Source: Stramenopiles sp. TOSAG23-2 (lineage: Eukaryota). From it: a stretch of DNA of 57,244 nt. The stretch covers positions 1-57,244 of the forward strand of contig LT649257.1 in the NCBI GenBank assembly GCA_900128395.1. The letters run 5' to 3'. The notes under the pieces were generated by a model that was given only the letters and a program-made list of their open reading frames with translations, was not told the origin of the DNA and made no database searches. Numbering within the stretch: the stretch's first letter is position 1; each line of letters begins with the position of its first letter. The position numbers and the translations under genes are program-made. This document shows, one piece after another, positions 2,303 through 38,084 of this stretch.

Positions 2303-3047
2303 CGATTACGTTTACAATCTTATCTTTCCCCTGACATACACTCAATAAAAACAATATATAGATAGAATAATTGTATTTTTCTTTCATGTAACTGTGTAAA
2401 ATGTTTTTTTATTACTTTTCTATTATTTCAATTATTAATTAATTTTTGGAAAGAAGAAGTTTCTTTTTTTGGCTTCTATTTTCTGGCTTTTTGACAAAAA
2501 TCGAGGAGTGAATAGTGAATGGCACGCCCAGCACGCCCAGCACGCAACACGCAAAATACATCTCTACTGTATCAACCTTACTGTATGTATTCTACCAAGC
2601 CTATATACGAAGTACCAATATGATTTTCAACAATACTTCCCTATCAAGTTCTGTAAATACATATACTAATTCTGTACTTAACATGTGGTAAACATATAAT
2701 TTACTGTTTACTTTTTTAAGGGAAAAGTACAAAAATATAGTGTGGGGACAAAAAGTGCAAGAAGGTTAAGGTATAAATTAAAATGTATTATAAATCTTCT
2801 TGCACTTTTCCTTTATGGTTTAACCTAAACCAGTTGCACAGTTGTTGCATCATCACAGTTGTTGTTGCGTTGTTGTGCCTATTAATTATTATTAGGATTA
2901 GATGTGTGCAGTATATAAATATACTGTATATATTAGTTCATATTTATGTTCTTAGTGAGAGATAAATGAATATATGCTGTATTTACAACCACTACTGATA
3001 AAAAATCAATATAGTTAATAAATAAAAATAGTTTATAAATTAACAGT

Positions 3048-4352
3048 ATGTCAGATTTAACAAGTTGGGGCACAGGATTGAAAGACACGGATGATAATAA
3101 TAATAATATGTTAATAAAGCCAATGTCTAGGAGATCCTTTACCGAAGGAAATGGCAATGTTGCTAAGATACCGGCACAAAGAAGATCTCGATCCAATACC
3201 CATAGTGCATCTTTCTTGAAGGATTTTAACCAATATGGTTCAACAGTAAAGACTGAAAAAAATACAAATAAAATATTGTTATTTTATTGCCCGGAAATGG
3301 AACAGGTTGCGAAAGAATGTGTAGAGCTGGCAGACGGGGAAATTGTATTAGGAAATGTTGAATTCAAACAATTTCCAGATGGTTGGCCGAATTTGTTTAT
3401 TAAAAACCAAGGATTGATCAAACAAAACGCTTGCTGTTTCTTAGCTTCATTTCATTCACCGGAAGTCGTTTTTACACAATTATCTGCTATATATGCATTG
3501 GCAAAATATAGAGCAAGAGAGTACAAAGTAATTGTGCCGTATTTTGCAACCGGAACTATGGACAGGGTACCGTAAAATTCTATTCCCCTAAACCTAAAAA
3601 ATGTATCCTCTCTAACACATCACTCATTCATACGCTACGCTCCACAGATAAGCGAACCTGGCGAAGTAGCAACTGCAATGACTATGGCTAGACTTTTAAG
3701 TGCAATTCCCATGTGTGCTACTGGTCCAGCAACACTTCAAATTATTGATATACATGCCTTGCAAGAAAAATTTTATTTTTCAGATCAAGTTTTAATACAA
3801 TTGAAATCTGCTATTTATTTATTATTAGAAAAAATCAAGTTTATATCAGATGAAAGTGGGGAGGATGGTGAAATTATTACTATTGTTTTTCCTGATAATG
3901 GAGCATCAAAAAGATTTAAATCAAAGTTTAATAAATTTGATCAAATTATATGTGAAAAGAAACGTATCGGGGAGGAAAGGGTTATACATATATTGGAAGG
4001 CATAGCTGAAGGGAAGCATTGTATAATTATTGATGATTTGGTCCAAACCGGTGGTACAATATTACAATGTGCGAAATGCCTACTTGCAGCAGGTGCATCA
4101 AAAGTTTCGGCGTACTGTACCCACGCTGTATTTCCGAAGCAGTCATATAAGAAATTTTTTCCAAATGAAGAAACTGGGAAATGTTTATTACACAAATTTT
4201 TCATCACTAATACTGTACCAACCATTGCCACATATTTACAAGATAAAGAACCATTCGAAGTTTTATCAATGGCACCGGTCCTTTGCCACAGTTTGTTGGA
4301 CGATCGTTTAAATTACCAATATACAACTACGGCAATTGAAATGGATTCGTAG
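3048..4352 (+). CDS. Ribose-phosphate pyrophosphokinase, class II (plant PRS3/4-like); join(3048..3566,3648..4352)
   Basis: Motifs FPDGWPNLF, PYFATGTMDR, DIHALQE, VFPDNGA and IIDDLVQTGGT. Removing the GT..AG intron 3567-3647 gives continuous MDR|ISEPGEVATA. Confidence 0.93.
3567..3647 (+). other. Spliceosomal intron (81 nt, phase 0), introner-like
   Basis: GTACCG...CCACAG with an in-frame TAA and a CTAAC branch-like motif; homologous to the intron at 13479-13557. Confidence 0.9.
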
Positions 4353-4568
4353 GAAAAGAGAGTAGGACGTAAATAATTATATAATATGATATATAAAAAA
4401 TTCTCTTATTTATAATTTTATATGATGCGCAATAAAATAATTAATGCAATATATATATACGTATTTAGTATTGATAAAACGCTATTTCAGAAGAAGAAAG
4501 AAGGAGAATGCAGAATAAAATATTATACGATATTTTATCGGGGGTGTCTTAAAATAATCTATATTTTG

Positions 4569-7500
4569 TTACATGACCCCTTTCAACCCGGTTTGCAATT
4601 GGATTTGCAATGCTGGACTCAAATTTTGAACAGCAATTTTAAATCTTACTTGTCCTGTTTTCAACAGTTGCAATGCATAGGTAGCAGCTAATTTTGCGAG
4701 CAATTTGCTCCTATCAATATGTTGAAAAGCTGCGAGAATTTCAATTAAAAAATTTGCAAAATTTTGATCTGATGATAACAAGCCAGCTTGAACAAGCATT
4801 TTAACTGCTATGGTTTTAACTTCATCATCAGTCTCATCATTGTCTCCCGTAGATAATAAAAGAACGATTTCAGTACCGACTAATGCCAAAAGATTTGATG
4901 CAGATAATGCGCCAAATGAATGAATGGTCCGAGAAGAAGCATTTTTATCTGACATCAAGTATTGAATACAACACAATCCACCAAAAATAATAGTATTTGG
5001 ATTTGTTGGATTTAAAGCGTTTTTCAATAAATCAATTGTATCGAAAAATATTTTACTTTGGAAGTTTTCTCTACATAATTTTACTAAGGATATCAAATTA
5101 CATTGCAATGATCCATATGCGTGAGAAGATTGTAAATTCAAACCACCAATACTATTTTCTTCTTTTATTTTTTCGAGTAGGTTTGAACATAAGCTTTCAT
5201 ACAAATCTAAAACTGCATTTTCTTTCAAATTATGCCTTTCTTCAATAGCCGCATTATCTATTTCTTTATCACATTTGATGAGAACATGGACAAACTTTTG
5301 TAACGCGCGTACAACCAATAATGATGTATCATTTTCAACCCGCAATAAAGATGTATGCAAAATAAAAACCAATTTTAAAAGGGAGGCACGATAATTGCTT
5401 CGGGCTTCAGTTGGTAGACACAATGTCACTGTAGTTAACATTTCAAGGGCATTGATAATGGTTCTAACTGCCATTGGTTGTAGCTCAACAGAAGATGAAA
5501 TGGTATCTTTGGTCTTCAACGTATAATGAATAATTCTTGCACAATATTCAATCAATGTGTGGCATAGATCAAAACCTGTAGTTGCTTCCTCGATGAAGCA
5601 GCTTTTCAACCAATCCAAATTTTGTTCAGATATTAGACATGCTAATAAAGCGACAGCTATGGTTGACATAGTTTCAGTACCCGATTCGATTGATCCCAAA
5701 CCATTGGCTAAAATAGAAACAATTTCCACCGCCAGTTCTACTGGTATACGATTTTCATTGACATATTTATTCGAAAACAGCCAACGCAAGACGGTAAAAC
5801 ATCTTGTTGCTTTTGTCAAATCAATTTTATCCCTTGTATCACCAGTTGGCGAGTGTGCTAAACATTGCAAACATACACCTAGTATTAAACTGTAATGGTG
5901 ATCTTCTTCTTCTTCTTCTTCCCCACTTTCTTTTTTCCCTTTTTTTGGCGACACGTCATCGTCTTTCCAAAGTTCCGTACCGAGAAAAGAAGCTGCGGCA
6001 ATTGTCAACGTAGGCCAAAACTGTTCATATATTGGCACAACTTGAAGTGCATCTTCATTATATTCAAGTAATGTTTTTTCAGGAATTCTAAATACTACTT
6101 TGCGCCCAGCCCTAGATGCATTGCCTCGTGCATTTAAAGATACATAATCACGAAGAGCGGTGAACCAATAATTCCGTAGTTGTGGTAAGATATCTTTCAG
6201 CGCTTTTGACAATGCCTTCCTCATGTCAACTGATACTGAAGACGACGTTAGATTCATAACAGTATCATTGCTTTCGCAACAATTCCATACAAACATTTGT
6301 GGTTCCAATGTTGACGCTTGCAACGTTCCTAGCGCAGTTAAGCGAGCAAGTAGTTTGCACATGGTTATGTGTTCTTGGTGTTCCTCGGGCTTTGGAGGCC
6401 TTACAGTTTTTTGGAGGTCAATATCAGCCAATAAAGTTTTAACAGCCCGTCGAGCCATAGCAAGATCGGTACTAATTCCAAGACTTATTAACGACGATAC
6501 GGAGCGACATGCTTGAATTGTTAAAGGAGGATACGAGCCCTTTTTAAAGCATGGCCGAAGCGCTGAATTGATTTGCGCTTCATATTGTAACAGAATTGAT
6601 TTTTTTGGTTCCTTCGGATCTTTTGAGTTTGCAAACATTTCTATAATATCGCCAATAAAACTTATACCTCGTGTTTGTATTTGATAGAGTTCGCCACCGT
6701 CAACCGATGATGTTGACATCACACAAGCTAATTTTACTAGCTCACGAAGGTGATAGATTAGAAATTCAGGACTTTTCTTGTTCTTTTTTGCATCTTCGAT
6801 CAATTTCTTTTTTCGCTTCTTCTCTTTTTTACTATTACTACTGTTAGAATTTTCTTTTTCTGATGGCATATTAAAATGCTTCTCTGAAAATTCAGACAAT
6901 CGAGCCAACTGAAGGAGCTTTTGTAAACATTCTAACGCAACATTTTTAGATTGCCATCTGATTCCATTTAAAGGCCAAAAATCCGGTTCTAGTGGGACTT
7001 CGTATAGTTCTGCTATTTGGTTATATGGGCTTTTCTTTTCAGCTTCAAGTTTTAATTTTTTCCTCTCATCTATTTCCTTCTTCCTCTTCTCCTTCTCTTT
7101 TTTCATTTCTTCATCATCATCGTCTGTATCATCATTATCTTCATCATCGCCATCCCCACTATTAGAAGATGAAGATATAATTACACTTCTTAATATATTG
7201 AACCAACGTGATGTTGATTCACGCGTACATGATGTATCTAGACCAATCATTTCTAACAAAACTTCTCGAACATTTTGTACTAATGCTTGGCGTGACATAG
7301 ATGCATCTGGATCTCGCCCTCGTGGAGAAGTTTGGTGCCTCATACGCAATAATCCAACGCCATCTACAGAATTTAACGGCGGCACGATATTGTGAGAACC
7401 AATAATCGTAGATGAAAGTCCAAACCCACCCATTGCCATAACAGATGGGGCAACTTCTACAGCGGCTTGACTGCAATCAAGAGTATAAAACAAATACGGA

Positions 7501-10500
7501 GCTAATGCAAAAACTAATTTAGGTTCTCTTTCTACGATCCTTCTTATACAATTACATGCTTTTCTTTGTATTAGCAAGGAACCGTTTATTAAATTATCCA
7601 AAATCCATGGCATGGCATCTATAAGGCCAAGATCTTTTGGACAAAACATGGCAACCTGTTCCACATAAAATAAACATTCTTCCTGTATCACTTCAAAATT
7701 TGACTCTTTTAGTTCCTCCCAACAAGACCAAAGTTGTTTCATTCTACCCGACTCTGCAAAACCAAGCAATTCTGGTCCCATACCACCAACCACTGAATTG
7801 ATCAGGCGGCCAAGGCAAAGCAGAACACCCGCATTTATTTGGTCGTCATAAGCTTCCCGCTCACGAGATGTCTCGCTTATACGTCCTGCTAGTAAATGCG
7901 CATCTACAAGTGCCATTGTAGGCTTGACATATTTTTCAAATCCAACACCGACTGAATTTATAACAATCCAAAAGGAGTGTAAACCCCAAGTTCGAATAGG
8001 CTGTGAGATTTCCCTTGACTGGTGATAGAAAAAATTATCAGGGACGACAGAACTACGATACATGCTACCCAATCTTCGTCTTATACACGCCAAAGCAAAT
8101 ATTGCACCTGCGCGATAATGTTTCATGTCCTCTTCATTATTATTACTACTATCTTTAACTTCTAAGCTTTTATGTAATGATTTTTCCACAGATTTTGCAA
8201 ATGACATATCTGTTATTGCTAATGCCATATATCCAATACCTTCAGCTGCGGCGCGTCTAACTAAACTATCACGACTACGTAACGCAGTTATTAATAAACC
8301 CTTACACGTACTTTTCCATTGACCACGAGAGGAAGATAAAACGTTGCTGCTACCATTGGTAGCTGTCGACGACGAAAAAATGTTAACTTTGGTTCCAAAC
8401 GCAACCAATGATTTACTAGCACCCAACATTGCGGCGAATATATTTCTTACTGCAAATGCCGTTGTTGTACTTGACTTGTTATCGGCAGCTTTGATAGACT
8501 TTTTAAACCCATCTAATAAACGTGTACGTGCTTCAGGTGACAATGCAGGGAAGGATACGGCAAAAAGTCCAATTGCAGCATCAACATGGCGTTGAATTGC
8601 AAATGGACTTGGTGAGCAATCAACAGGACGCCAACTGCGTCTTGGAGAAACAATGTCACTACCTCTTCCAGCCCCATTCGCAATTATTGGAACAGCCCAT
8701 GCCATAGCATTTATTAATGCAAATTCTTGCTCTATTAAACTTATTTTGACATAAGCTGAGTCCAACGACAATGCTATAGGTTCTTCAAGAACATCCACAT
8801 CGCTTACAAAATGTATATCCTCCCCTCTGCATCTTGGAATACCAGGCCATTTTCTTTCCCCAATTTGTAAAGATGCATCCCCCGAGTCTAAAAGTGGAAG
8901 ACAATCCAACAACGAAGTCTGTCCATACAAGCCATCTACAAACGCAGTAACAGTAGATTGGACCAGCGATGGCAATGCTCTTGCTAAGGTTTCAGATACT
9001 GGTAACAGAGCACATGCTTCTAATGACGTAGCATATAATGTTATGAACATAATATCAGCTTTCACGTTTTTGGATTGTTTGCTTTTATTCGTACTGCCAC
9101 CAAGGAACGATGCACTAATTGTTTTTGTATTAGAATTAGAATTTGCTAAATTAGATAACGACTGAAGCGGTGGCGACAATGCACTGACAACATTTAATAC
9201 ACATATAACACATTCTTCCATGGATTCTGCATCATCATTTGCTAATGTTGGCCAACTTGCAACTAGCCGAGTTAATGCACACATCGCCGTAGCAACAACT
9301 TCTAGTTCTGACATTGAAGTCGCCGCATTCAAAGAATGCGGAGAACGTGCTCGGCATACTTCTTTTAAAACTGAAATAATATTATGTAGATGCGGACGAA
9401 CAGTCAATGGACCAAGAGCAATAATTCCCATTATTAATGTCCAACCAGCGCGAGCACATGCAGACGCTGCAGTTGCGAGTAGGGCGTCATCATTATATTG
9501 ATGAAGCAATGCAGTAGATAAATACAACACGGTGTTAACAGTTGATCTTGGTACACCCAATGAACATGCAGGAACCGCAAATAAAAGTGCGGCAACCGCC
9601 ATACTTCGTCCACGCAAACCGATCAAAAGCTGTATGACTTCGACTTGTTCTTTTTTTGATGGCTTTTTACGCCCCTTTTTTGACATTGCAATGGTTATAA
9701 GGTCTCCATGATTCTTAACCATATTTTCAACCAGCTCATCAAGCAGTTTGCTACCAAGTGCCGGTATTGCAGCCATAAATGAACGTGCACAGGTAGCTGT
9801 TTCCAGACGCACTGCGTGAGCTGGATGTACAACTAAGTCACTCAAAACGTTTCTGCAATCAGCACCTATCCCACCCGCCGCATCACCCAACGCACTTAAT
9901 AAATGGCTTAACGCAGAAAGCAACACTACAATTTGTAAATCATCCAGTTTATCCACTTTTTTCGGCTTCAATTTATGTAATATCATTTGCGATATTAAAA
10001 TTAAGTGATGTTCAGGACGTTGATATACAATTGCATTGCGTAAGATGTAAGATGTTAAAGCTTGCATATAGTCTTTATGCGAATCAGTGGACGATACTTT
10101 GGAAGTTGTCGGCTTCATTAGAGACAAAATTTTCGAAATCAATGGTGGCAATACCTCTTTTGTCATAGATATATCACTCGTTGAAGGATGCCGAACAACT
10201 TCTATCATAGCTTTTGCTATACCTAATTTCCCTGCTTTTGATGTTGATCTGTTTAATTGTGCACATAAATATGAAACTGCACTTGGCAATGAAAAATTCA
10301 TTGGTGGCTTTTTTTTAGTGCCCAATGATAACTTTCGCGTTTCCACCTTTTTAATGCTTCCCGGTTCTACTGGATTTAAAATGGATATAGTCATCATCGT
10401 CCCAATTGCACGTCCATATGCAAGTCTAACTTTCGGTGATAAATCATCTACACCACGCATGGCCAATGCCATTAAATTGTCCAACGGAAGGGAGTCAAAA

Positions 10501-11210
10501 ATGTTTGTTGCCATCGCAAGAGCTTCAAGTGCAGAGCCTACTATAACTCGAATTTCACTTGATTTATCTTTACTAGCAGTCGTCAAAAATTTTAATGCAG
10601 CTAGATGTGAATGCTTTCCAGCATATCCACAAGAATTGATCACTTCAAAAACGCACATTACCGTAGCTCGTTTCACTTGAATATCTGACAAACGCATTTG
10701 TTTCCCACATGCTGTTAAAACATCTTGAAAATAGGATGAAACATTTTTACCTTGCGTTTTAAATAACATTTCGATAGAGTGCAATACTGTACAACTAACA
10801 TGACGATCTGTTTTTTTATCGTTTAAGATTTCAACCCAACGAGCCAATGTATCAAATAAAGTCCGTGTTCTTCCAGCGAGATACAATAAACCATAACATT
10901 CAGCAATTAAAGTACGTAGAGGACTTGTTAATTGTTCTTGCAATAGCATTAAGACAGCATGCAATAACTTTTCACAATGAACTTGCAGCGTTTCCAATGG
11001 CAATGCTGGCAATTTCTTCTGCTCTTCTTTACTCAGAGCTTTCCGCTTTTTATCTAACTTTAACGCATCTCTCAAGTGATACCTTAATTGAATAATTTGT
11101 CGATATGTTTGTCTTTTAAATTTGGACTTCTTTGCAGTAACACCACCACTTTTTTGTGATTTAATTAATTTTTGTAATCCACGTAAAGTTTCATCAAATT
11201 CTACCGGCAT
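4569..11210 (-). CDS. HEATR5: HEAT repeat-containing protein 5 (HEATR5/Laa1/SWEETIE family)
   Basis: ~2200-aa intronless helical ORF, first ATG at 11210. Family-like segments VRRAAAEGIG, HYRAGAIFALACIRRRLG, RTWGLHSFW, RWQSKNVALECL and ILLQYEAQINSALRPCF. Confidence 0.85.
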   Translation of the reverse strand: MPVEFDETLRGLQKLIKSQKSGGVTAKKSKFKRQTYRQIIQLRYHLRDALKLDKKRKALSKEEQKKLPALPLETLQVHCEKLLHAVLMLLQEQLTSPLRTLIAECYGLLYLAGRTRTLFDTLARWVEILNDKKTDRHVSCTVLHSIEMLFKTQGKNVSSYFQDVLTACGKQMRLSDIQVKRATVMCVFEVINSCGYAGKHSHLAALKFLTTASKDKSSEIRVIVGSALEALAMATNIFDSLPLDNLMALAMRGVDDLSPKVRLAYGRAIGTMMTISILNPVEPGSIKKVETRKLSLGTKKKPPMNFSLPSAVSYLCAQLNRSTSKAGKLGIAKAMIEVVRHPSTSDISMTKEVLPPLISKILSLMKPTTSKVSSTDSHKDYMQALTSYILRNAIVYQRPEHHLILISQMILHKLKPKKVDKLDDLQIVVLLSALSHLLSALGDAAGGIGADCRNVLSDLVVHPAHAVRLETATCARSFMAAIPALGSKLLDELVENMVKNHGDLITIAMSKKGRKKPSKKEQVEVIQLLIGLRGRSMAVAALLFAVPACSLGVPRSTVNTVLYLSTALLHQYNDDALLATAASACARAGWTLIMGIIALGPLTVRPHLHNIISVLKEVCRARSPHSLNAATSMSELEVVATAMCALTRLVASWPTLANDDAESMEECVICVLNVVSALSPPLQSLSNLANSNSNTKTISASFLGGSTNKSKQSKNVKADIMFITLYATSLEACALLPVSETLARALPSLVQSTVTAFVDGLYGQTSLLDCLPLLDSGDASLQIGERKWPGIPRCRGEDIHFVSDVDVLEEPIALSLDSAYVKISLIEQEFALINAMAWAVPIIANGAGRGSDIVSPRRSWRPVDCSPSPFAIQRHVDAAIGLFAVSFPALSPEARTRLLDGFKKSIKAADNKSSTTTAFAVRNIFAAMLGASKSLVAFGTKVNIFSSSTATNGSSNVLSSSRGQWKSTCKGLLITALRSRDSLVRRAAAEGIGYMALAITDMSFAKSVEKSLHKSLEVKDSSNNNEEDMKHYRAGAIFALACIRRRLGSMYRSSVVPDNFFYHQSREISQPIRTWGLHSFWIVINSVGVGFEKYVKPTMALVDAHLLAGRISETSREREAYDDQINAGVLLCLGRLINSVVGGMGPELLGFAESGRMKQLWSCWEELKESNFEVIQEECLFYVEQVAMFCPKDLGLIDAMPWILDNLINGSLLIQRKACNCIRRIVEREPKLVFALAPYLFYTLDCSQAAVEVAPSVMAMGGFGLSSTIIGSHNIVPPLNSVDGVGLLRMRHQTSPRGRDPDASMSRQALVQNVREVLLEMIGLDTSCTRESTSRWFNILRSVIISSSSNSGDGDDEDNDDTDDDDEEMKKEKEKRKKEIDERKKLKLEAEKKSPYNQIAELYEVPLEPDFWPLNGIRWQSKNVALECLQKLLQLARLSEFSEKHFNMPSEKENSNSSNSKKEKKRKKKLIEDAKKNKKSPEFLIYHLRELVKLACVMSTSSVDGGELYQIQTRGISFIGDIIEMFANSKDPKEPKKSILLQYEAQINSALRPCFKKGSYPPLTIQACRSVSSLISLGISTDLAMARRAVKTLLADIDLQKTVRPPKPEEHQEHITMCKLLARLTALGTLQASTLEPQMFVWNCCESNDTVMNLTSSSVSVDMRKALSKALKDILPQLRNYWFTALRDYVSLNARGNASRAGRKVVFRIPEKTLLEYNEDALQVVPIYEQFWPTLTIAAASFLGTELWKDDDVSPKKGKKESGEEEEEEDHHYSLILGVCLQCLAHSPTGDTRDKIDLTKATRCFTVLRWLFSNKYVNENRIPVELAVEIVSILANGLGSIESGTETMSTIAVALLACLISEQNLDWLKSCFIEEATTGFDLCHTLIEYCARIIHYTLKTKDTISSSVELQPMAVRTIINALEMLTTVTLCLPTEARSNYRASLLKLVFILHTSLLRVENDTSLLVVRALQKFVHVLIKCDKEIDNAAIEERHNLKENAVLDLYESLCSNLLEKIKEENSIGGLNLQSSHAYGSLQCNLISLVKLCRENFQSKIFFDTIDLLKNALNPTNPNTIIFGGLCCIQYLMSDKNASSRTIHSFGALSASNLLALVGTEIVLLLSTGDNDETDDEVKTIAVKMLVQAGLLSSDQNFANFLIEILAAFQHIDRSKLLAKLAATYALQLLKTGQVRFKIAVQNLSPALQIQLQTGLKGVM

Positions 11211-11863
11211 GTTGCTTTTTTCAATTAATTTTAATGACAAATTTTCGCTTTAAAACAAAGAAATATGTCGTTGAATGATTTAAATGGTAGTAGATAATAA
11301 TGATATGATATTCTATATGGATGTCGATTATTATTTAGAATGATTATGGCTCTGTATTATTTAATATGGTTATATTATAAATAATAAATAGATATGTAGC
11401 TATTTATAAATATATATATGAGTAGCACAGTAGTCTATATTATTAATAATTTCCTAGTCTATTTTCCTCTCTGCTATTTATCCATTATTTATATTCCTTG
11501 TAAACCAGTAAATAAGAAGACGGATGAAACTCTCCCCAAAACAGGCGTGGTCTAAAATTAGTACAGATTTAGTGGTATAAACATTAAAATACTAAAACGT
11601 ATAGGAAAAAATGGATAGTTTCAAAATACATGTATAGAGAATGGTATACTATAACGATTTGTGCACTTCGAGATCTGAGATTTTATTATTAGTTATAATT
11701 ATTTATTATATATATTATATATATTATATATATATTGTTCGTTGTATGATGATAATAATTATTATCCGGATCCTAAATATCGGAAAGCAACAATACCTTT
11801 TGAAATATTAATATAGATAATTTGATTCGGATAGATATAGAATAGAATATTATTTTGTGTAAC

Positions 11864-12703
11864 ATGTGTATTGGTTTTGGTGGTAGAGATGATGGTGGTG
11901 GGTACAAAGAATATCGTAGTGAACGTGCACGGTGTTTAGGGAAAGCAGTTGGAATTTGTATAGTTTTTCATTTAATATTTGCGTGTGGGCGCATCGTTTC
12001 TTATTCCTTTTTTGCTGCACTTTTTGATTTATATTTAGTATCATTTGGATATTGTGTCATTAGGCGTTATTTTCGCCATCCGGATCGAAAACCTGATCCA
12101 AGTCCTTTATTATTATGCGAATCACAACAGATTTTACTGAATTATATTATGATGTTAGCTTTTGATTTTGGGCTATCCATTCTAACAACTGTCGAATTAT
12201 TGACGTCAAAGCCTACAAATCCGCCACCAGTGGGTGTCCCTGAGTATGACTACCGCACATTGGCTATGTGGCAATGGTGGTCTGGCGTAGTGATATGCAT
12301 ATCAATGCTAATCCTATTCACTATCGAACTAATATTGGTATGGTGGTTATATAAAACTTTAGAAAATGAATATGATGATTTACGATATCCAATGTGGTTA
12401 GAAGAAGCGATACCACCATCCTCACGACAAGCTGGAGGTGGTATGCCACAAAATATGATGAATGGTGGTGCTAACAATTTTAACTTTTCACAAGGAGGAG
12501 GTGGTGGTGGCAATGGTGGTGGTGGAGGAGGAGGTACACCATTTCAATATAACAATAGCAATCGTAATGAAGAGTCTCAAAATTTAATCTCACAGGAGAC
12601 TGGTAATTCTTCTAACACTTTTGTTGGGGAAGGGCGTGCACTTGGTGGTGATAGATTACCACGAGATGCAAGACATTCTAGATTGATTGCAGAAGGGTTG
12701 TAA
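11864..12703 (+). CDS. Hypothetical multi-pass membrane protein with Gly/Asn-rich C-terminal tail
   Basis: Long ORF with about four hydrophobic segments; first ATG at 11864; no family recognised. Confidence 0.7.
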   Translation: MCIGFGGRDDGGGYKEYRSERARCLGKAVGICIVFHLIFACGRIVSYSFFAALFDLYLVSFGYCVIRRYFRHPDRKPDPSPLLLCESQQILLNYIMMLAFDFGLSILTTVELLTSKPTNPPPVGVPEYDYRTLAMWQWWSGVVICISMLILFTIELILVWWLYKTLENEYDDLRYPMWLEEAIPPSSRQAGGGMPQNMMNGGANNFNFSQGGGGGGNGGGGGGGTPFQYNNSNRNEESQNLISQETGNSSNTFVGEGRALGGDRLPRDARHSRLIAEGL

Positions 12704-12895
12704 AAAAAAGAATTCTATAAAAAAAATCATGATGTGTATTAAAATGATATGTATATATATAGATAGCTTTTATTCAAATATACGAGTACGAAGAGTATAT
12801 TTTTTTTATTTTTCTTTTATCATACTAAAATCTAAAATAAAAATATTTTTATTATAAAATTAATATAGATGTATATCTTTGTCCATCTTTCAGTT

Positions 12896-12985
12896 TAGTG
12901 AGATAGATTTGTCTCAGTTATTGTATTCTTTCTGGAGAGTAGGAATTATCATGAGTAAATTAAAAAATAAGTTAATGCATTAATT
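12896..12985 (+). repeat. Dispersed intergenic repeat family A, copy 2
   Basis: GTGAGATAGATTTGTCTCAGTTATTGTATTCTTTCTGGAGAGTAGGAATTATCATGAGTAAATTAAAAAATAA is similar to the reverse complement of 1321-1425. Confidence 0.8.
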
Positions 12986-13064
12986 AAATATTTTATGTTA
13001 TAATATATATATATATATATCCCGGATTAGGAAATTTTACAAAATGCACGCACGAAATATTATT

Positions 13065-14388
13065 TTATGGATATCTTGAACAATGATTCTCCGTAATATT
13101 CATCTTACCATCACCATTTGGTGTGCTTGGATCGATATGAAACGTATCTTTACCACTATTGCCATTATGCCAATTAATATAATGTTTATACGTCAAAACG
13201 CCATTGATCTTAATAGTATCCCAATTGCAACCGTGACAAATACAAGATGTAATAGCACCACCATTTTTTGAAAACTTCATAACTTGTGAATTAAATGCAC
13301 TTAAAAAACTTTTACCATAGTTCAAGATTGCTGTTTCTTCATCATTATTGCATTGAACATTTTTTTCTTTAATACAAGGCACTTGCAATATATTATCCAT
13401 TTGCCATTGATCGTATTTAGAGTTAAAAACGAAAAATGGTGTCTTGATAAATTGCGCCATATGAGGGGACATGAAACACTGGGGAATGTATGACATAAAT
13501 GAGTGATGTGTTAAAGAGAATGTCTTCTATAGGTTTAAAGGAATAGAATTTACTTACATAATATGGTGTTTCTGCATATGTCTTTAAACATTCAGGCATC
13601 AATGCACCTACAGTCAAATTTTGCATGTGATAAATATAATTCATCCAGTTTGGGTAGCTGGAAGAACTGTGAACATAATTAGGATGATCCAAGAAAAAAC
13701 CAACAACTGGGGCAGATTTCAACGGTGCTGCATTTGGGGCTTCTTCTTTTAAACGATTGGCAACATAATCTGAATGTAAAAACGTAGATAAACCACCAGC
13801 ACTACCACCAGTTAAAATTACATTTTCAGCTTGGTCAAGATTTAAATGTTTAAATGCATACGTAAGTGTCTCTTGTATATTAGTAAAACCACGGAAATAT
13901 AATTCTCCAACTTCTTTACCATCTTCTACAACATGCCATGGATCTTTACGGTATCCAGAAAACGATGCCCCATCGCCATATGGCATATAAATGCAATTAC
14001 AGTCCTTTTCAATTTCATTTTTATCGTTTACGTTCATACAATTACATCCCGCTTTTTTTCTAAAAAATTTTGATGAACCTAAACGAGTTTTTGAACGTGC
14101 ATAGCATAATGTTTCGTTGTAACACCAACCACCACCTTGAATCATGATAGTCCAAGATTTTGAACCAGTCGTTGATGGTACAAAATAGAAACCATAAGGC
14201 GAGCCATCAAGACACAAAGCACCTGTTTCGCTTGACAATAAGGTTAATGGCACCATAGTTTTCAATTCGCTTCGACCTATGTTGAAATCTGCAAAATCAT
14301 CATCTGTATCATCCTTAGCAGCAACTACAATTACTGAAATAATCATTAAAACAATGCTACATTGAATTAAAAAAGTAATATTATTCAT
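13065..14388 (-). CDS. Secreted pectinacetylesterase/Notum-family hydrolase; complement(join(13065..13478,13558..14388))
   Basis: Signal peptide, CLDGSP, IQGGGWC, YGDGASFSG, catalytic GGSAGG, FNSKYDQWQ and SCICH. Removing the intron joins TPYY|CFMSPH in frame. Confidence 0.92.
13479..13557 (-). other. Spliceosomal intron (79 nt, phase 0), introner-like
   Basis: GTAAGT...CCCCAG on the minus strand; reconciles the two offset ORFs; homologous to intron 3567-3647. Confidence 0.9.
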
Positions 14389-15414
14389 TATTCTTCTTTC
14401 TTAACTTTTATTTGTAATAACCTTTGCTTTGTTGAATACTTTGTTGTGATGATGTTTTGTGTGTGTGATCTGGTGATTCCTTCCTCTTCAGTCATGGGTG
14501 ATCCCTGGGTTATGCAAAACAAATAATATAACTTTTGGGAAAGTTATATATTCTAGATTCTACAGTATAAGTGTCGTATCTTAATCTATGGATTGCATGC
14601 GATTCTTCTAAAAAAAAATCATAAAATTAATAATCCATATTTTCCCATTTTCGATTTTACACTCCATACAAAAAACAATTTATCCGCAAAAAAAAAAATT
14701 CAAATAGTCGATTTAAGTACAAATAAGAATACTAAATTTTCATAGGTACCAAGTCCACATCTAGTAGGGAGTAGGGCTGGCCGGCTGGCAAGACCACACA
14801 ATACCACAATACCTGGTATTGAACCAAAAAATCTTTATACAGTACAGCATGATAATAGACGACCTATCATGATGAGGGAGTGCTAGAGCTACGAGGACGT
14901 AGCCGCCTAGTGTCTGTACTACATTCGCTCCCTATCATCAGGACCTCCATGATCCGCCATCCATTTTATTTATAATAAAAATAATATCACGTTTATTATA
15001 AAAAAATTGAATAAATGATTGATGATTATATTATAATACTACATGTTTATATATATATACAATGAAAAATACATCACTAGACGACACATTAAATGGTTTT
15101 GTTGTTTATTGTTGTTGCAGATCAAAATATTGTTATACCATTCCAGTCAATTTGTTAACCCCATTTCTTGTTTTATATTTATTTTCAATAGTTCATATCG
15201 ATATTCATATCTAATCTATATTTATACACATTTATTTAGTATATATATATATATAAATATTGATATAAAGATAAATTTTGAACTATCTATTTATTGTTGT
15301 GGATTTGGAAAGTATTTAATATAATAAAAGTCATTATTATATAAATATTATAAACACACATTCACATAAACGTAGTAAAAATAAGAGAAATATTATAGTT
15401 ATAGTATTGTGAAT

Positions 15415-19959: not shown

Positions 19960-21934
19960 TTAAGTTGTCAGATGAATGTTGTTTAAGACTACCCCGATTG
20001 GTGAATACTCGATCTTATTATTAGATGCTTCCTCGGTCTTATTATTAGATGCTTCCTCAATCTTATTATTAGATGATTCCTCGATCTTATTATTAGATGA
20101 TTCTAACCCCTTTTTAATACCTAAACTCTTGTTGTTATTTACTAATAAACTTTGTATGTCAGTAATATTAAACCTCTCTTTTTTTCCATATATATTAAAC
20201 CTCTTTTTTTCTTTTTTTTTCATAATATTATTACCAGATAGGTCCAACGTTACATTGTATCTTTTTCTTTTTAATGCATCTTGGATACTTTGTACATCGG
20301 TAATATTATTATCAGCTAGATTCAATTCTGTTAATGCATTGTTTGTTTTCAATCCTTCACCAATACTTTGTACATCGGTAATATTATTATCATAAAAACT
20401 TTGCACATCAGTAATATTATTATTATTTAGGTACAATGACGTTAATGCATTGTTTGTTTTCAATCCTTCACCAATACTTTGTACATCGGTAATATTATTA
20501 TTATATAGGTTCAATTCCGTTAATGCATTGTTTGTTTTCAATCCTTCACCAATACTTTGTACATCGGTAATATTATTATTCACCAATACTTTGTACATCA
20601 GTAATATTATTACTATTTAGGCCCAATATCTTTAATGTATTGTTTCTTTTCAATGCTTCATAAAAACTTTGCACATCAGTAATATTATTATTATTTAGGT
20701 ACAATGACGTTAATGCATTGTTTGTTTTCAATCCTTCACCAATACTTTGTACATCGGTAATATTATTACCATTTAGGTCCAATCTCGTTAATGTATGGTT
20801 TGTTTTCAATCCTTCACCAATACTTTGTACATCGGTAATATTATTATAAGCTAGGTACAAGTCCTCTAATGTATTGTTTGTTTTCAATCCTTCACCAATA
20901 CTTTGTACATCAGTAATATTATTACCCCATAGGTCCAATATCTTTAATGTATGGTTTGTTTTTAATGCTTCACCAATACTTTGTACATCAGTAATATTAT
21001 TATTATTTAGGTACAATGACGTTAATGCTTTGTTTGTTTTTAATCCTTCACCAATACTTTGTACATCAGTAATATTATTACTATTTAGGCCCAATATCTT
21101 TAATGTATTGTTTCTTTTCAATGCTTCATAAAAAATTCGCGCATCAGTACTTGTAATATTATTATTATCTAGGTACAACTTTGTTAATGTATTGTTTCTT
21201 TTCAATGCTTCATAAAAACTTTGCACATCAGTAATATTATTATTATTTAGGTCCAAGTACTTTAATGTATTGTTTATGTTTAATGCATGACCAATACTTT
21301 GAATATTTGCAATATTATTATTATCCAATCGCAACATATATAACGTCTTGTTCGTTTTTAAAAATTCCCCTATAATTTTTACATTTGTAATCTTATTACC
21401 AGTCAAGGTCAATTCCTTTATTGTATTCTTCATTTTTAATATTTTAAAAATTGCGACGCTTTGTTCATATGTGATATTATTATTTTGTAGGTCCATGGCC
21501 TCATTATTATCAGGCCCATTATTATTCAATAGCCGATATATCTCATTTTTCTTTACTATTATGACAGGTGTACTTGGTTTTCTTACAGTTTTCTTGGTCT
21601 TCTTACAATGTTGTAGTCCCAGTATTCCTGGGTTATATAGTATGTTGTTATCCGTATAACATACTGTTCTTCTTTTCCATTTCCATTTTCTTATTCCCGT
21701 TCTTCTCCTATCTGCTTCTTCTTCTCTTTTTCTTTTCTGCTTTGCTGTGAATTGTTTGCTATGCCGATATCTACCTCGTGAAGTGGAGTGTTTTACTCCA
21801 GTTCGATGTTTTGCAACTGCTTCTCTGTTTTTTTTGTTTTTCAACAGGAGTTTCGATTTAATATCCTCTTGCTCTTTTCTATATTTTCGTTTTCTTTCTC
21901 TTTCTCTTTTTTGGTTTAGACTATGCTGTTTCAT
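19960..21934 (-). pseudogene. RI-like leucine-rich-repeat gene (26-aa repeats) with basic N-terminus; frameshifted at ~20579 (ORFs 20576..21934 and 19960..20598)
   Basis: About 15 repeats of type NNITDVQSIGEGLKTNxxLxxLxLxx. A 44-nt deletion relative to the 78-nt module creates TAA at 20576-20578, and the array continues in another frame. The first ORF could still make a truncated 452-aa protein. Confidence 0.85.
20010..20105 (-). repeat. 24-bp coding tandem repeat (EE[A/S]SNNK[I/T]), about 4 copies
   Basis: TCTTATTATTAGATG[CA]TTCCTC recurs with a 24-nt period. Confidence 0.85.
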
Positions 21935-22248
21935 ATGTAATAATCTAATAAAATAATTGATTTCTAAAATGATTTTGTTTAAAAATACACGTACTTCGTA
22001 CTTTACTACCGCTTCTCGGTAATAATATATTTTAACACTCTCCTTCCTTTCTTCTCTCGTTCGTAATGACTTCTCCTGAAAGTCTTAACGTTTTATATTA
22101 ATATTTGAATCCTCTATCTGTATATTACGTATATTTTACACACTCTCTATACCACTTTCTATGTTATATCTGTTATGGCATACATATGTGTGAAAACAAC
22201 AACTTGGATTTATGTTTATCAACACTCCATGCTGTGCTCCTACTAATA

Positions 22249-36061: not shown

Positions 36062-36067
36062 TATTTA

Positions 36068-36655: not shown

Positions 36656-38084
36656 ATGAATAGATACCAATTAATAGTTTATGTATGCCTTCTTTCAATT
36701 TTTATCTGCAATGTACATGCATATGATAATGGTGCAAAACATTCAAGATTACCACCTTTAGGGTGGTCAAGTTGGGTAGCATTAGGGCCAAATGATGAAC
36801 ATCCAATATTTGATTTTTGCGATGAAGATTCCGTAAAAGCGGCTATTGATGCATTTGTAAGTCCAGAATTGGGGTTATTTGAAGCTGGATATCGCCACTT
36901 TCACTTAGACGATTGTTGGGCAGGCGGTAGAAACTCGAGTGGATATTTGTATCCAGAAAAAGACCACTTTCCAAATGGAATGAAATCTGTGATTGACTAT
37001 GCTCATTCAAAAAATGTTGTTTTTGGCTTATATACATGTGCTGGCACATTTACTTGTGTAGGTGGTCGCCCTGGATCAAAAGGTCATTGGCAACAAGATG
37101 CTGATGTATTTGCCGAATGGGGTGTTGATTGGGTAAAGATGGATTGGTGTAATACAAATGGAATGACCCCCCAAACAACGTATCCAAAAATGTCCCAAGC
37201 TATGAATAAAACTGGATGGCCAATTCATTTTAATATGTGTGAATGGGGTGTAAATAATCCATGGGAATGGGGTGATGCAATAGCACAAAGTTGGCGTATG
37301 AATGGTGACCATACAGGTATATGGAGCTCTACAAAGGAAGTGATACAAAGTGCTTCAAAAATTCCCAGTAAATATAGTGGAAGACCATATGGATGGAATG
37401 ATATGGATATGTTGGAAACTGGTAATTATGATCAAGCAGCACGTAAGTATATATATATATATACATATATTATATATTTCCTTTTTTTTTTAATATATTT
37501 ATGAAGACACCTATTAACACATAATATGATATATATGTAACATAGATGCCAATGGTAAAGAAAGTAATATGACAAGTCTTGAATATAAGACTGAATTTTC
37601 AATGTGGGCAATGGCTGCCTCACCATTAGTAGTTACAACACCAATTATGAAATGTAGCAAGAATAGTGATGAAGGTGGTGATGTAACATGTACACCAACA
37701 ATTACAAATTTACAAAAGGAGATTTTGTTAAATACCGAAGTGATAGCAATTAATCAAGATATAACACCACAAGGTAGACCAGTCAATGATAACTCATTGA
37801 AATATTGGGCTCGTATGCTAAGTGATGGTAATGTTGCCATTGCATTATATAATGAAGACGATAAAGAAGATGATTTTAATTTCAATTTTGAATGGTTAAA
37901 TAAAGGTAATGATCCAATTGTATCTACAAAGATTATGAAAGTTACGAAAGAAACAAAAGCATCGGTAAGAGACCTTTGGAAACATGAAGATTTAGGAGAA
38001 TTTGTTGGTTCTTTTCCAGCAAATGACACTAGTATCAAAGTACCAGCACATGGAACTATGATGCTACGCTTAACAATGCATTGA
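36656..38084 (+). CDS. Secreted alpha-galactosidase (GH27); join(36656..37442,37546..38084)
   Basis: Signal peptide, PPLGWSSW, HLDDCW, GVDWVKMDWC, WNDMDMLETGN, FSMWAMAASPL, VIAINQD and VRDLW. A phase-1 intron GTAAGT..CATAG (37443-37545) joins the ORFs. Confidence 0.95.

What the first reader, a model, noticed from the sequence alone, without database searches (positions are those of the whole stretch)
3567..3647. Homologous introns in two unrelated genes: an introner family
Seen: the PRPP synthetase intron (gtaccgtaaaattctattcccctaaacct...ctaacacatcactcattcat...ccacag, 81 nt) and the pectinacetylesterase intron (13557-13479; gtaagtaaattctattcctttaaacct...ttaacacatcactcatttat...ccccag, 79 nt) match at 61 of 81 aligned positions by hand count. 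They share an exact 16-mer, TAACACATCACTCATT. Both are phase 0 and the flanking exons are unrelated. These are two of only three introns found in a window whose 3-7 kb genes are intronless. No clear TIR or TSD is visible. Known: repeated introns in unrelated genes define introners. Inference: recent intron gain by a mobile family, possibly not of the TIR/TSD MITE type.
Basis: partly seen in the sequence, partly recalled or inferred. Interest (0 to 1): 0.82.

Follow-up and report, generated by a model that had tools for sequence, protein, structure and literature searches.

The report
Self-copying 80-base intron family
Two short introns in unrelated genes of an uncultured marine microbe belong to a family of near-identical introns that has recently copied itself into dozens of genes, always in the reading direction and without the usual marks of a jumping gene.

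Summary
The two GT..AG introns lie at the stated coordinates. They share 59 of 81 aligned positions and an exact 16-mer, are both phase 0, and sit in unrelated genes.

The interpretation also holds. RNA contigs from marine metatranscriptomes skip exactly these intervals. In two marine DNA metagenomes, 35-56 contigs with unrelated flanks pile onto the first intron, and the likeness stops at the intron ends.

One pattern scan of public metagenome contigs, followed by a profile search, found 42 distinct insertion sites.
- Cutting the element out restores a long open frame on the element's own strand at 42 of 42 sites.
- Host genes are unrelated to each other.
- Phases are mixed: 19, 13 and 10 for phases 0, 1 and 2.
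- Two copies in unrelated genes are 100% identical over 80 nt.
- There is no target-site duplication, terminal inverted repeat or stable RNA fold.
- A third intron in the window is not a member.

This is a true introner family of the class without TIRs or TSDs, and it inserts only in the sense direction. The kind is known, so I rate it a new member. How it spreads is inferred, not shown. The host genome was not available.

The parts
3567..3647 (+). Introner copy 1: an 81-nt phase-0 intron in the PRPP-synthetase-like gene. It is a young family member, 91% identical to its nearest copy elsewhere.
   Evidence: Sequence. An RNA contig of X17 skips 81 nt with GT..AG ends, and other X17 contigs end at 3566 and begin at 3647. 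Profile built from 32 other-site copies: E 9e-22. Nearest neighbour 0.91.
13479..13557 (-). Introner copy 2: a 79-nt phase-0 intron in the pectinacetylesterase gene. It is an older, more diverged member, 76% identical to its nearest copy.
   Evidence: Sequence. RNA contigs of two studies skip exactly 79 nt (X15 with 126 nt on the shorter side, X17 with 255). Profile E 5.6e-13. Nearest neighbour 0.76.
3575..3595 (+). Conserved 5' internal block of the family (AAATTCTATTCCCCTAAACCT). It matches no splice signal that I know of.
   Evidence: Shared by both window copies. Nearly invariant in the 40-copy alignment, but most of those copies were found with this block as the search pattern. The copies found only by profile keep it with 1-4 changes.
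3611..3616 (+). Predicted branch-point motif TCTAAC, about 32 nt upstream of the 3' splice site. It lies partly within the shared 16-mer at 3613-3628.
   Evidence: TAAC is invariant in 40 of 40 aligned copies. The branch-point role is inferred from the general eukaryotic CTAAC/CTRAY consensus, which I recall and did not test.
3039..4352 (+). Host gene 1: ribose-phosphate pyrophosphokinase-like, two exons (3039-3566 and 3648-4352, measured from stop to stop).
   Evidence: Pfam Pribosyltran_N upstream (below its cut-off), Pribosyltran and Pribosyl_synth downstream.
13065..14400 (-). Host gene 2: pectinacetylesterase family, two exons (14400-13558 and 13478-13065).
   Evidence: Pfam PAE profile positions 5-213 upstream and 230-321 downstream.
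37443..37545 (+). Comparison intron that is not a family member: 103 nt, phase 1, AT-rich, in the alpha-galactosidase gene. It shares only GTAAGT and a TTAACACAT branch region with the family.
   Evidence: It is not hit by the family profile at E up to 10.

Best explanation
The two introns are copies of one introner family: a unit of about 80 nt that is itself a complete spliceosomal intron. Each copy carries a GTAAGT-type donor, a conserved internal block, an invariant TCTAAC branch motif, a G-poor tract and a CACAG acceptor. The host is an AT-rich, gene-dense, intron-poor marine eukaryote that I could not identify.

Shown:
- The family is multi-copy.
- The likeness ends exactly at the intron boundaries.
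- Copies sit in unrelated genes and in all three phases.
- Every copy examined is in the sense orientation of an open reading frame.
- Both window copies are spliced.
- Some copies are identical, while others form a series that decays towards ordinary-looking introns.
- There are no TSDs, no TIRs and no stable fold.

Inferred: because each copy brings all its own splice signals, an insertion is removed from the mRNA and is tolerated.

The mechanism of spread is my commitment, not a demonstration. I think it is a strand-specific process tied to transcription or splicing that makes no TSD. The most likely form is reverse splicing of an excised intron into another transcript, then reverse transcription and recombination back into the gene. 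My odds are about 0.9 that this is a real, recently active introner family, and about 0.35 for the reverse-splicing route in particular. The rest is split among unknown TSD-less DNA elements.
For: Copy number and boundaries. At 3602/3603, 35-39 contigs in DNA run X2 and 55-56 in X4 carry variant letters, with summed depth near 1000 against 6-22 nearby. Loose ends start before 3575 (22 contigs) or 3572 (8) and behind 3647 (28 in X2, 37 in X4). Flank agreement is only 0.37-0.48, and the upstream consensus ends in GGTAAGT.

Copies elsewhere. 45 of 57 matches to a 19-specified-base pattern in metagenome contigs are full family copies. The profile search adds copies in the same contigs. In total, 58 bounded copies collapse to 42 unique sites.

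Sense only. At 42 of 42 sites the open frame spanning the junction after excision is longer on the element's strand, with a median of 377.5 against 56 codons. No copy is intergenic or antisense.

Unrelated hosts. An all-against-all BLASTP of host proteins finds only overlaps on the same contig, three weak paralogue pairs whose intron positions do not coincide, and three short matches of 21-28 residues. 17 of 20 flanking exons hit diverse Pfam families. In locus L122 the ABC_membrane domain continues across the junction, at profile positions 160 and then 166.

Phases are 19, 13 and 10.

Recent activity. The L095 and L097 copies are 100% identical over 80 nt, in a DAO-type oxidoreductase gene and a lipase/FYVE gene. 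L072 and L122 are 99% identical.

No TSD. The mean longest direct repeat is 2.39 against 2.19 (sd 0.26) for shuffled partners, and 2.88 against 2.91 in the second test. No TIR: 6.6 of 20 matching positions against 7.1 for shuffles.

Splicing. RNA contigs skip 13479-13557 in two studies and skip 81 nt at 3566/3567-3646/3647 in one. No DNA contig shows either skip.

Not a general signal. The third intron is not hit by the profile.
Against: - No whole genome was available. Copy number per genome, and any intergenic or antisense copies that assembly or my pattern missed, are unknown.
- The metagenome loci may come from several close relatives. Their GC content of 0.29-0.36 matches the window but does not prove one species.
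- The search pattern was the family's own 5' block, so that block's conservation is partly forced.
- Absence of the introns from orthologues could not be tested. The only orthologous loci found (L103, L076) are 94-99% identical to the window and carry the introns.
- Nothing here shows reverse splicing. Intron positions along host frames show no 3' bias: 14, 18 and 7 in the three thirds, by a crude measure. A model primed by reverse transcriptase from the 3' end might predict such a bias.
- Exon flanks show only a weak G|G preference: 18 of 41 at -1 and 15 of 41 at +1.
- Support for splicing of the first intron is thin. One contig has 29 nt on its shorter side. One contig of RNA run X15 runs unspliced through 3278-3640.
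Confidence: 0.6

Rival explanations
1. The family is a non-autonomous cut-and-paste DNA transposon (a MITE-type introner, as I recall being described for Micromonas pusilla and Aureococcus). Its antisense and intergenic copies have been lost or were simply not sampled.
For: Most introner families that can be classified are TIR DNA transposons: about 82% of the confidently categorised ones (PMC12130899, Results section read). The window holds weak P-element-like transposase remnants at 33608-36064, so DNA transposons occur in this genome. A different short repeat occupies intergenic DNA.
Against: There is no TSD and no TIR in 41 copies. 42 of 42 copies are sense and genic. Selection cannot remove neutral intergenic copies, and the pattern scan took no account of strand or context. 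The unit ends exactly at GT and AG.
Confidence: 0.15
2. The family is a TSD-less, TIR-less DNA element that inserts in a strand-specific way, such as a Helitron-like, Crypton-like or other single-strand transposon. Its orientation is set by transcription or replication.
For: The lack of TSD and TIR together with a strict orientation fit such elements. Helitron and Crypton introners are reported (PMC12130899).
Against: There is no conserved target dinucleotide at the junctions; the flank logo is weak. There is no 3' hairpin or any stable fold. The termini are plain splice sites. No autonomous partner was seen, but only 57 kb plus 217 kb were searched.
Confidence: 0.15
3. There is no mobility. 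The introns look alike because an intron-poor organism imposes long, strict splice signals on all of its introns.
For: The third intron shares GTAAGT and TTAACACAT with the family. The branch motif TAAC is invariant.
Against: The likeness covers the whole 80 nt, including a 21-nt block with no known splice role. Some copies are 99-100% identical. The third intron is not a profile hit. Decayed copies are still placed as introns by the long open frames restored on both sides.
Confidence: 0.03
4. The copies are inherited through gene duplication, or homogenised by gene conversion between paralogues.
For: A few host proteins are weak paralogues at 30-34% identity.
Against: Host proteins are otherwise unrelated, and the intron positions in the paralogue pairs do not coincide. 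The Pfam families are diverse. Four copies in one LRR gene sit in phases 1, 0, 2 and 0.
Confidence: 0.02

Closest known systems
Introners as defined in the pan-eukaryote surveys of Gozashti et al. (PMC9860276: passages read. PMC12130899: abstract and Results read)
   Same: Many similar introns in unrelated genes, with likeness that begins and ends at the intron boundaries. The host is a marine unicellular eukaryote. The length lies within the reported range of family medians (30-654 nt). Families lacking both TSD and TIR, some with copies 100% identical end to end, are reported there.
   Different: Here every copy found is sense and genic. I saw no such strict bias stated in the passages I read. 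That survey included 520 Tara Oceans eukaryotic assemblies, so this family may already be listed in its supplementary tables, which I could not open.
Fungal introner-like elements (PMC3609843, abstract seen in the listing)
   Same: Multi-copy spliceosomal introns. Copies decay in sequence and length until they look like regular introns, as seen here. That fungal elements lack transposon hallmarks is my recollection, not something I read.
   Different: Fungal elements are described as longer than regular introns and as having stable predicted secondary structures. This family has no stable fold: z-scores run from -1.0 to +1.1 and the consensus structure has 0 pairs. It is also no longer than the one non-family intron in the window.
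MITE-type introners of Micromonas pusilla and Aureococcus (DNA transposons with TSDs, and one splice site taken from the duplication; recalled from Huff et al. 2016, a paper I did not read here; TSD-based splice-site recruitment is described in PMC9860276)
   Same: A short non-coding unit creates introns on a genomic scale in a marine picoeukaryote.
   Different: There is no TSD and no TIR, and both splice sites lie inside the repeated unit.
Parmales sp. 'scaly parma' introner family (PMC12130899)
   Same: A single family of unknown mechanism accounts for most recognisable intron gains in a marine protist. Here 2 of the window's 3 convincing introns are family members.
   Different: No sequence comparison was possible. 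The share of all introns in this genome that belong to the family is unknown.

Membership tests
Introner (general definition) | Several sequence-similar introns at non-homologous positions in unrelated genes | tested here: met
   42 unique sites. Host proteins are unrelated and 17 of 20 flanking exons hit diverse Pfam families.
Introner (general definition) | Similarity runs end to end and stops at the exon-intron boundaries | tested here: met
   Loose ends of metagenome contigs start at 3572/3575 and 3647 with unrelated flanks. The alignments with flanks show the same.
Introner (general definition) | Copies are removed by splicing | tested here: met
   RNA contigs skip both window copies. For the other 40 sites this is inferred from the frames that excision restores.
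Introner (general definition) | Recent gain: near-identical copies, and absence from orthologues of relatives | tested here: inconclusive
   Pairs that are 100% and 99% identical lie in unrelated genes. Absence from orthologues could not be tested, because the only orthologous loci are 94-99% identical to the window and carry the introns.
MITE-type / TIR DNA-transposon introner | Target-site duplication flanking the insertion | tested here: not met
   Two direct-repeat tests on 41 sites equal the shuffled-partner expectation.
MITE-type / TIR DNA-transposon introner | Terminal inverted repeats | tested here: not met
   6.6 of 20 matching positions against 7.1 (sd 1.3) in shuffled introns.
MITE-type / TIR DNA-transposon introner | Insertions in both orientations and outside genes | tested here: not met
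   42 of 42 sites are sense and genic, within 274 kb of sampled DNA. The whole genome was not available.
Fungal introner-like elements | Stable predicted secondary structure | tested here: not met
   RNAalifold finds 0 pairs. Six copies fold with z-scores from -1.01 to +1.07. The central hairpin I proposed is paired in 38.5% of cells against 38.1% when shuffled.
Reverse-splicing ('intron transposition') products | Sense-only, exact intron unit, no TSD, only in transcribed DNA | tested here: met
   These features are necessary but not sufficient.
Reverse-splicing ('intron transposition') products | RNA intermediates, dependence on reverse transcriptase, recombination with cDNA | not testable with these tools
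   This needs lariat or branch reads, a reverse-transcriptase inventory of the genome, and experiments.

The most novel reading that the evidence does not exclude
This may be a 'pure' introner with no DNA-transposon ancestry: a minimal 80-nt intron that spreads through the spliceosome itself, by reverse splicing into transcripts and then copying back into the genome. That would explain why all 42 copies are sense, genic, exact and without TSDs. It may also have created most of the introns of an otherwise intron-poor, abundant marine protist, with decayed copies grading into ordinary introns. Because the organism is common in ocean metagenomes and metatranscriptomes, filled and empty alleles and RNA intermediates could be sought directly in existing data.
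Probability: 0.3. Interest if true: 0.85.

Novelty: new member of a known kind. Interest (0 to 1): 0.55.

Why it matters
How new spliceosomal introns arise is an old question. Introners are the only known process that makes them in bursts, and about 72% of known families have no assigned mechanism (PMC12130899).

This family is a clean small case of that unexplained class:
- The whole mobile unit is the intron.
- It is only about 80 nt long.
- It is strictly sense-oriented.
- It leaves no duplication.

Its host is abundant in public ocean DNA and RNA data, so presence/absence alleles and splicing intermediates could be sought without a culture.

It also matters for annotating intron-poor protist genomes. 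A profile of this family locates introns, including ones with unusual donors such as GTACCG.

Tried and rejected
- Own-genome search: no genome is held for this window.
- The 16-mer in viral contigs: 68 matches, all unrelated sequence and mostly one conserved phage-like stretch. None is a family copy.
- Central palindrome (GGATATCC, seen as CGATATCG and GAATATTC in some copies) as a hairpin kept by paired changes: rejected. It is paired in 38.5% of cells against 38.1% when shuffled. RNAalifold finds no pairs.
- Local hopping, meaning that copies on one contig are more alike than others: rejected. Mean identity is 0.721 against 0.721, and 2517 of 5000 permutations are as high. Only the two L118 copies are close relatives.
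- A 3' bias in intron position within host frames: not seen, at 14, 18 and 7 per third. This is a crude measure, because other introns break the frames.
- Rfam on the window at gathering scores, and on 11250-13070 at E up to 1; tRNA scan of the window: nothing found.
- DNA joints that skip from 3647-3649 to other places, or 'go back' 75 or 36 nt: one contig each, with short sides of 21-45 nt, at 80% likeness in metagenomes. I treat them as repeat-induced assembly joins, or possibly tandem copies, and give them no weight.
- Lineage of the host: not determined. Papers on marine single-cell genomes gave nothing that links to this family. My searches for 'introner' together with uncultured stramenopile or single-cell terms listed no paper that holds 'introner' (15 of 252 papers listed).

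Full report
**1. The observation**

The two sequences are at the stated coordinates. One is 3567-3647 on the + strand (81 nt, GTACCG...CACAG). The other is 13479-13557 on the - strand (79 nt, GTAAGT...CCCCAG).

MAFFT aligns them with 59 identical columns of 81. The 16-mer TAACACATCACTCATT is exact in both and occurs nowhere else in the window. A second shared block, AAATTCTATTCCNNTAAACCTA, matches twice where 0.01 is expected, and 0 of 100 shuffles reach 2. In a short-word BLASTN of the window, each intron finds only the other (83% over 54 nt, E 5e-5).

Both introns are phase 0, and the flanking exons translate without stops. The flanks are unrelated. Pribosyltran_N, Pribosyltran and Pribosyl_synth flank the first intron. 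Pectinacetylesterase lies on both sides of the second, with profile positions 5-213 and then 230-321.

The window is a gene-dense eukaryotic stretch of about 33% G+C with long uninterrupted frames, including a 2226-codon HEATR5-like frame and a 1244-codon RPB2 frame. My signal-plus-frame scan found only the PAE intron, the alpha-galactosidase intron at 37443-37545, and one doubtful candidate. Its donor rule missed the GTACCG donor of the first intron.

**2. Splicing and copy number from public reads**

No genome is held for the window. A run search with 3567-13557 found the stretch in 20 of 24 listed runs from 13 studies. Most are marine metagenomes, and six are RNA runs. I laid two RNA runs (X15, X17) and two DNA runs (X2, X4), all held as contigs, on 2900-14500 at 80% likeness.

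RNA evidence:
- RNA contigs skip exactly 13479-13557 in both RNA studies, with 126 and 255 nt on the shorter side.
- One X17 contig skips 81 nt with GT..AG ends at 3566/3567-3646/3647, with 29 nt on its shorter side. Other X17 contigs end at 3566 and begin at 3647.
- No DNA contig shows either skip.
- One contig of RNA run X15 runs unspliced through 3278-3640. This is either retention or DNA carried over.

DNA evidence:
- The first intron is a pile-up. At 3602/3603, 35-39 contigs in X2 and 55-56 in X4 carry variant letters. Summed depth is near 1000, against 6-22 in neighbouring unique sequence.
- Contigs lose their fit before 3575 (22 contigs in X2) or before 3572 (8), and behind 3647 (28 in X2, 37 in X4).
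- The loose flanks agree only 0.37-0.48 with one another, and the upstream consensus ends in GGTAAGT.

So the repeated unit is the intron, no more and no less, and its copies have unrelated neighbours. The second intron attracts only 3-4 contigs, which fits an older and more diverged copy.

**3. Copies recovered as sequence**

The 16-mer alone is not specific. Its 68 matches in viral contigs are all unrelated.

One scan of metagenome contigs with AAATTCTATTCCNNTAAACCT gave 54 loci with 57 matches. Of these, 45 are full family copies and 12 are chance matches. My filter misfiled L101 and L106 in opposite directions, and I corrected that by eye.

A profile built from 34 representatives was searched with nhmmer over the window plus the 217 kb of loci. 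It found further copies in the same contigs. These include four strong copies in one LRR gene (L073) and second copies in five other loci or locus groups: L083/L084/L100, L107/L109/L120, L081, L090 and L096. After assigning boundaries and merging the same site seen in different metagenomes, 58 copies collapse to 42 unique sites, including the two in the window. One more copy (L080) touches a contig end and was left out.

The loci have 0.29-0.36 G+C, like the window. L103 and L076 are the window's own two loci from 94-99% identical relatives, and both carry the introns.

With a profile rebuilt from the 32 copies at other sites, the window has exactly two hits, at E 9e-22 and 5.6e-13. The next best hit has E 0.68. 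The third intron is not hit at all.

**4. Anatomy of the family**

The alignment of 40 copies shows these parts in order:
- a GTAAGT donor, present at 31 of 42 sites; the others are GTACGT, GTTAGT, GTATGT, GTAAGG, GTACCG, GTATAT, and one doubtful GTGTTT;
- a variable spacer of 0-6 nt;
- the conserved block AAATTCTATTCCCCTAAACCT;
- an A-run and a variable middle;
- TCTAAC, in which TAAC is invariant;
- a G-poor tract;
- CACAG as the acceptor.

The conservation of the 5' block is partly forced, because it was my search pattern. However, copies found only by the profile keep it with a few changes.

After excision, the frame that spans the junction is longer on the element's strand at 42 of 42 sites. 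The median is 377.5 codons against 56 on the opposite strand. No copy is antisense or intergenic.

Phases are 19, 13 and 10 for phases 0, 1 and 2. The fact that both window introns are phase 0 is therefore not a family property.

Host proteins do not match each other, apart from overlaps on one contig, three weak paralogue pairs whose intron positions do not coincide, and three short matches of 21-28 residues. 17 of 20 flanking exons hit diverse Pfam families. These include enoyl-CoA hydratase, zinc alcohol dehydrogenase, DAO, lipase/FYVE, TPR, ankyrin, HAD, Dak2/DegV, mitochondrial carrier, D-Tyr-tRNA deacylase, ion channel, ABC transporter, LRR, sodium:sulfate symporter, P450 and Ppx/GppA. 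The other three exons had no hit. In L122 the ABC_membrane profile runs to position 160 before the intron and resumes at 166 after it.

**5. Tests for transposon marks and structure** (41 sites; L101 was dropped because a contig end makes its boundary uncertain)

- No TSD. The mean longest direct repeat between exon ends is 2.39, against 2.19 (sd 0.26) for shuffled partners. Across the two junctions it is 2.88 against 2.91.
- No TIR. There are 6.6 of 20 matching positions, against 7.1 for shuffled introns.
- Exon flanks show only a weak G|G preference: 18 of 41 at -1 and 15 of 41 at +1, with binomial p of 5e-5 and 3e-3 against 17% G.
- No RNA structure. RNAalifold predicts 0 pairs, and six copies fold no better than shuffles, with z from -1.01 to +1.07. 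A central palindrome that looked as if it kept its pairing through matched changes does not survive counting.

**6. Age**

Pairwise identity has a median of 0.72, and nearest-neighbour identity a median of 0.86. L095 and L097 are 100% identical over 80 nt in unrelated genes, and L072 and L122 are 99% identical.

The PRPP-synthetase copy is 91% identical to its nearest relative, and the PAE copy only 76%. Two weak profile hits (E about 1e-3 to 1e-2) are also sense-strand introns with decayed sequence.

The family therefore spans copies from very recent to nearly unrecognisable.

**7. Mechanism**

Each copy brings its own donor, branch site and acceptor. An insertion into an exon can therefore be spliced out and tolerated. 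This step is inferred from the anatomy, and it is supported by the RNA contigs for the two window copies.

A classical TIR transposon fits poorly for three reasons:
- There is no TSD and no TIR.
- The unit ends exactly at GT and AG.
- No intergenic or antisense copy appears among 42 sites, although the scan took no account of strand or context.

Selection could remove antisense copies from exons, but not intergenic ones. This organism does carry another short repeat in intergenic DNA.

The remaining options are a spliceosome-linked route or an unknown TSD-less, strand-specific DNA element. The first would be reverse splicing into a transcript, then reverse transcription and recombination. I favour it, at about 0.35, because it predicts all four features at once. 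Nothing here shows it directly. The crude position analysis shows no 3' bias, and copies within one gene are no more alike than copies in different genes.

**8. Comparison with what is known**

Introners are well established. One survey reports 548 families in 175 of 3,325 genomes, with TSDs in 49 of 130 and TIRs in 72 of 177 assessable families. Some families lack both, and aquatic hosts are strongly over-represented (PMC9860276, passages read). A later survey reports 1,093 families in 201 species, of which about 72% could not be assigned to a transposon class (PMC12130899, abstract and Results read).

This family meets the general definition. It fails the tests for the MITE type, and it fails the structure criterion of fungal introner-like elements (PMC3609843, abstract only). 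It is a new member of a known kind.

The 2022 survey included 520 Tara Oceans eukaryotic assemblies, so the family may already stand in its supplementary tables, which I could not open. I could not determine the host's lineage.

**9. Verdict**

Interest is moderate, because the phenomenon is known. Even so, this is an unusually clean, minimal, strictly sense-oriented family without TSDs. It lives in an abundant uncultured marine protist, where the open question of mechanism could be pursued with existing ocean data.

Noticed in passing
window 12909-12975 (also 1337-1384); L115, L095, L088, L110, L100: A second short interspersed repeat lies in AT-rich intergenic DNA downstream of the PAE gene. 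It draws very large pile-ups in the metagenome contigs (summed depth above 10,000). Parts of it recur near gene ends in five other loci and once more in the window. There is no Rfam match. It could be a MITE or a conserved 3'-end signal.
   Followed up: partly
window 33608-36064 (-): Three consecutive frames on the - strand carry weak matches to the RNase H N- and C-terminal domains of P-element/THAP9-like transposases. Both matches are below Pfam's cut-offs. This may be a decayed or intron-split DNA-transposase gene. Nothing links it to the intron family.
   Followed up: partly
window 19960-22084 (-): A leucine-rich-repeat gene is split into two overlapping frames (19960-20616 and 20576-22084), both with LRR matches. 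This is a frameshift, an assembly error, or an intron that my scan did not recognise.
   Followed up: no
window 37443-37545 (+): The alpha-galactosidase intron (103 nt, phase 1, very AT-rich) is not a family member by profile. It shares GTAAGT and a CCTATTAACACAT stretch with the family's branch region. That stretch is either this organism's general branch signal or the last trace of a decayed copy.
   Followed up: partly
L073:350-2335 (+): One LRR gene carries four family introns within 2 kb, in phases 1, 0, 2 and 0. A fifth, decayed copy lies in a gene on the opposite strand at 4195-4240.
   Followed up: yes
L109:3124-3215 (same site in L104, L107, L120): In this copy the family's own donor has decayed to GGAGT. 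The frame is kept only if an upstream GTATAT is used, which makes a 92-nt intron. This looks like a splice site that slid after insertion. There is no RNA evidence.
   Followed up: partly
window 3572-3647, DNA run X2: Single DNA contigs join 3646 back to 3572, and 3647 back to 3612. These are either tandem or partial tandem copies of the element somewhere in the community, or assembly loops at a repeat.
   Followed up: no
window 11517-11555 and 4374-4414: Two more short intergenic stretches show raised summed depth (hundreds to about 1700) in the DNA metagenome contigs. The second recurs in L096 and L088. The first has no copy in the loci I hold.
   Followed up: partly
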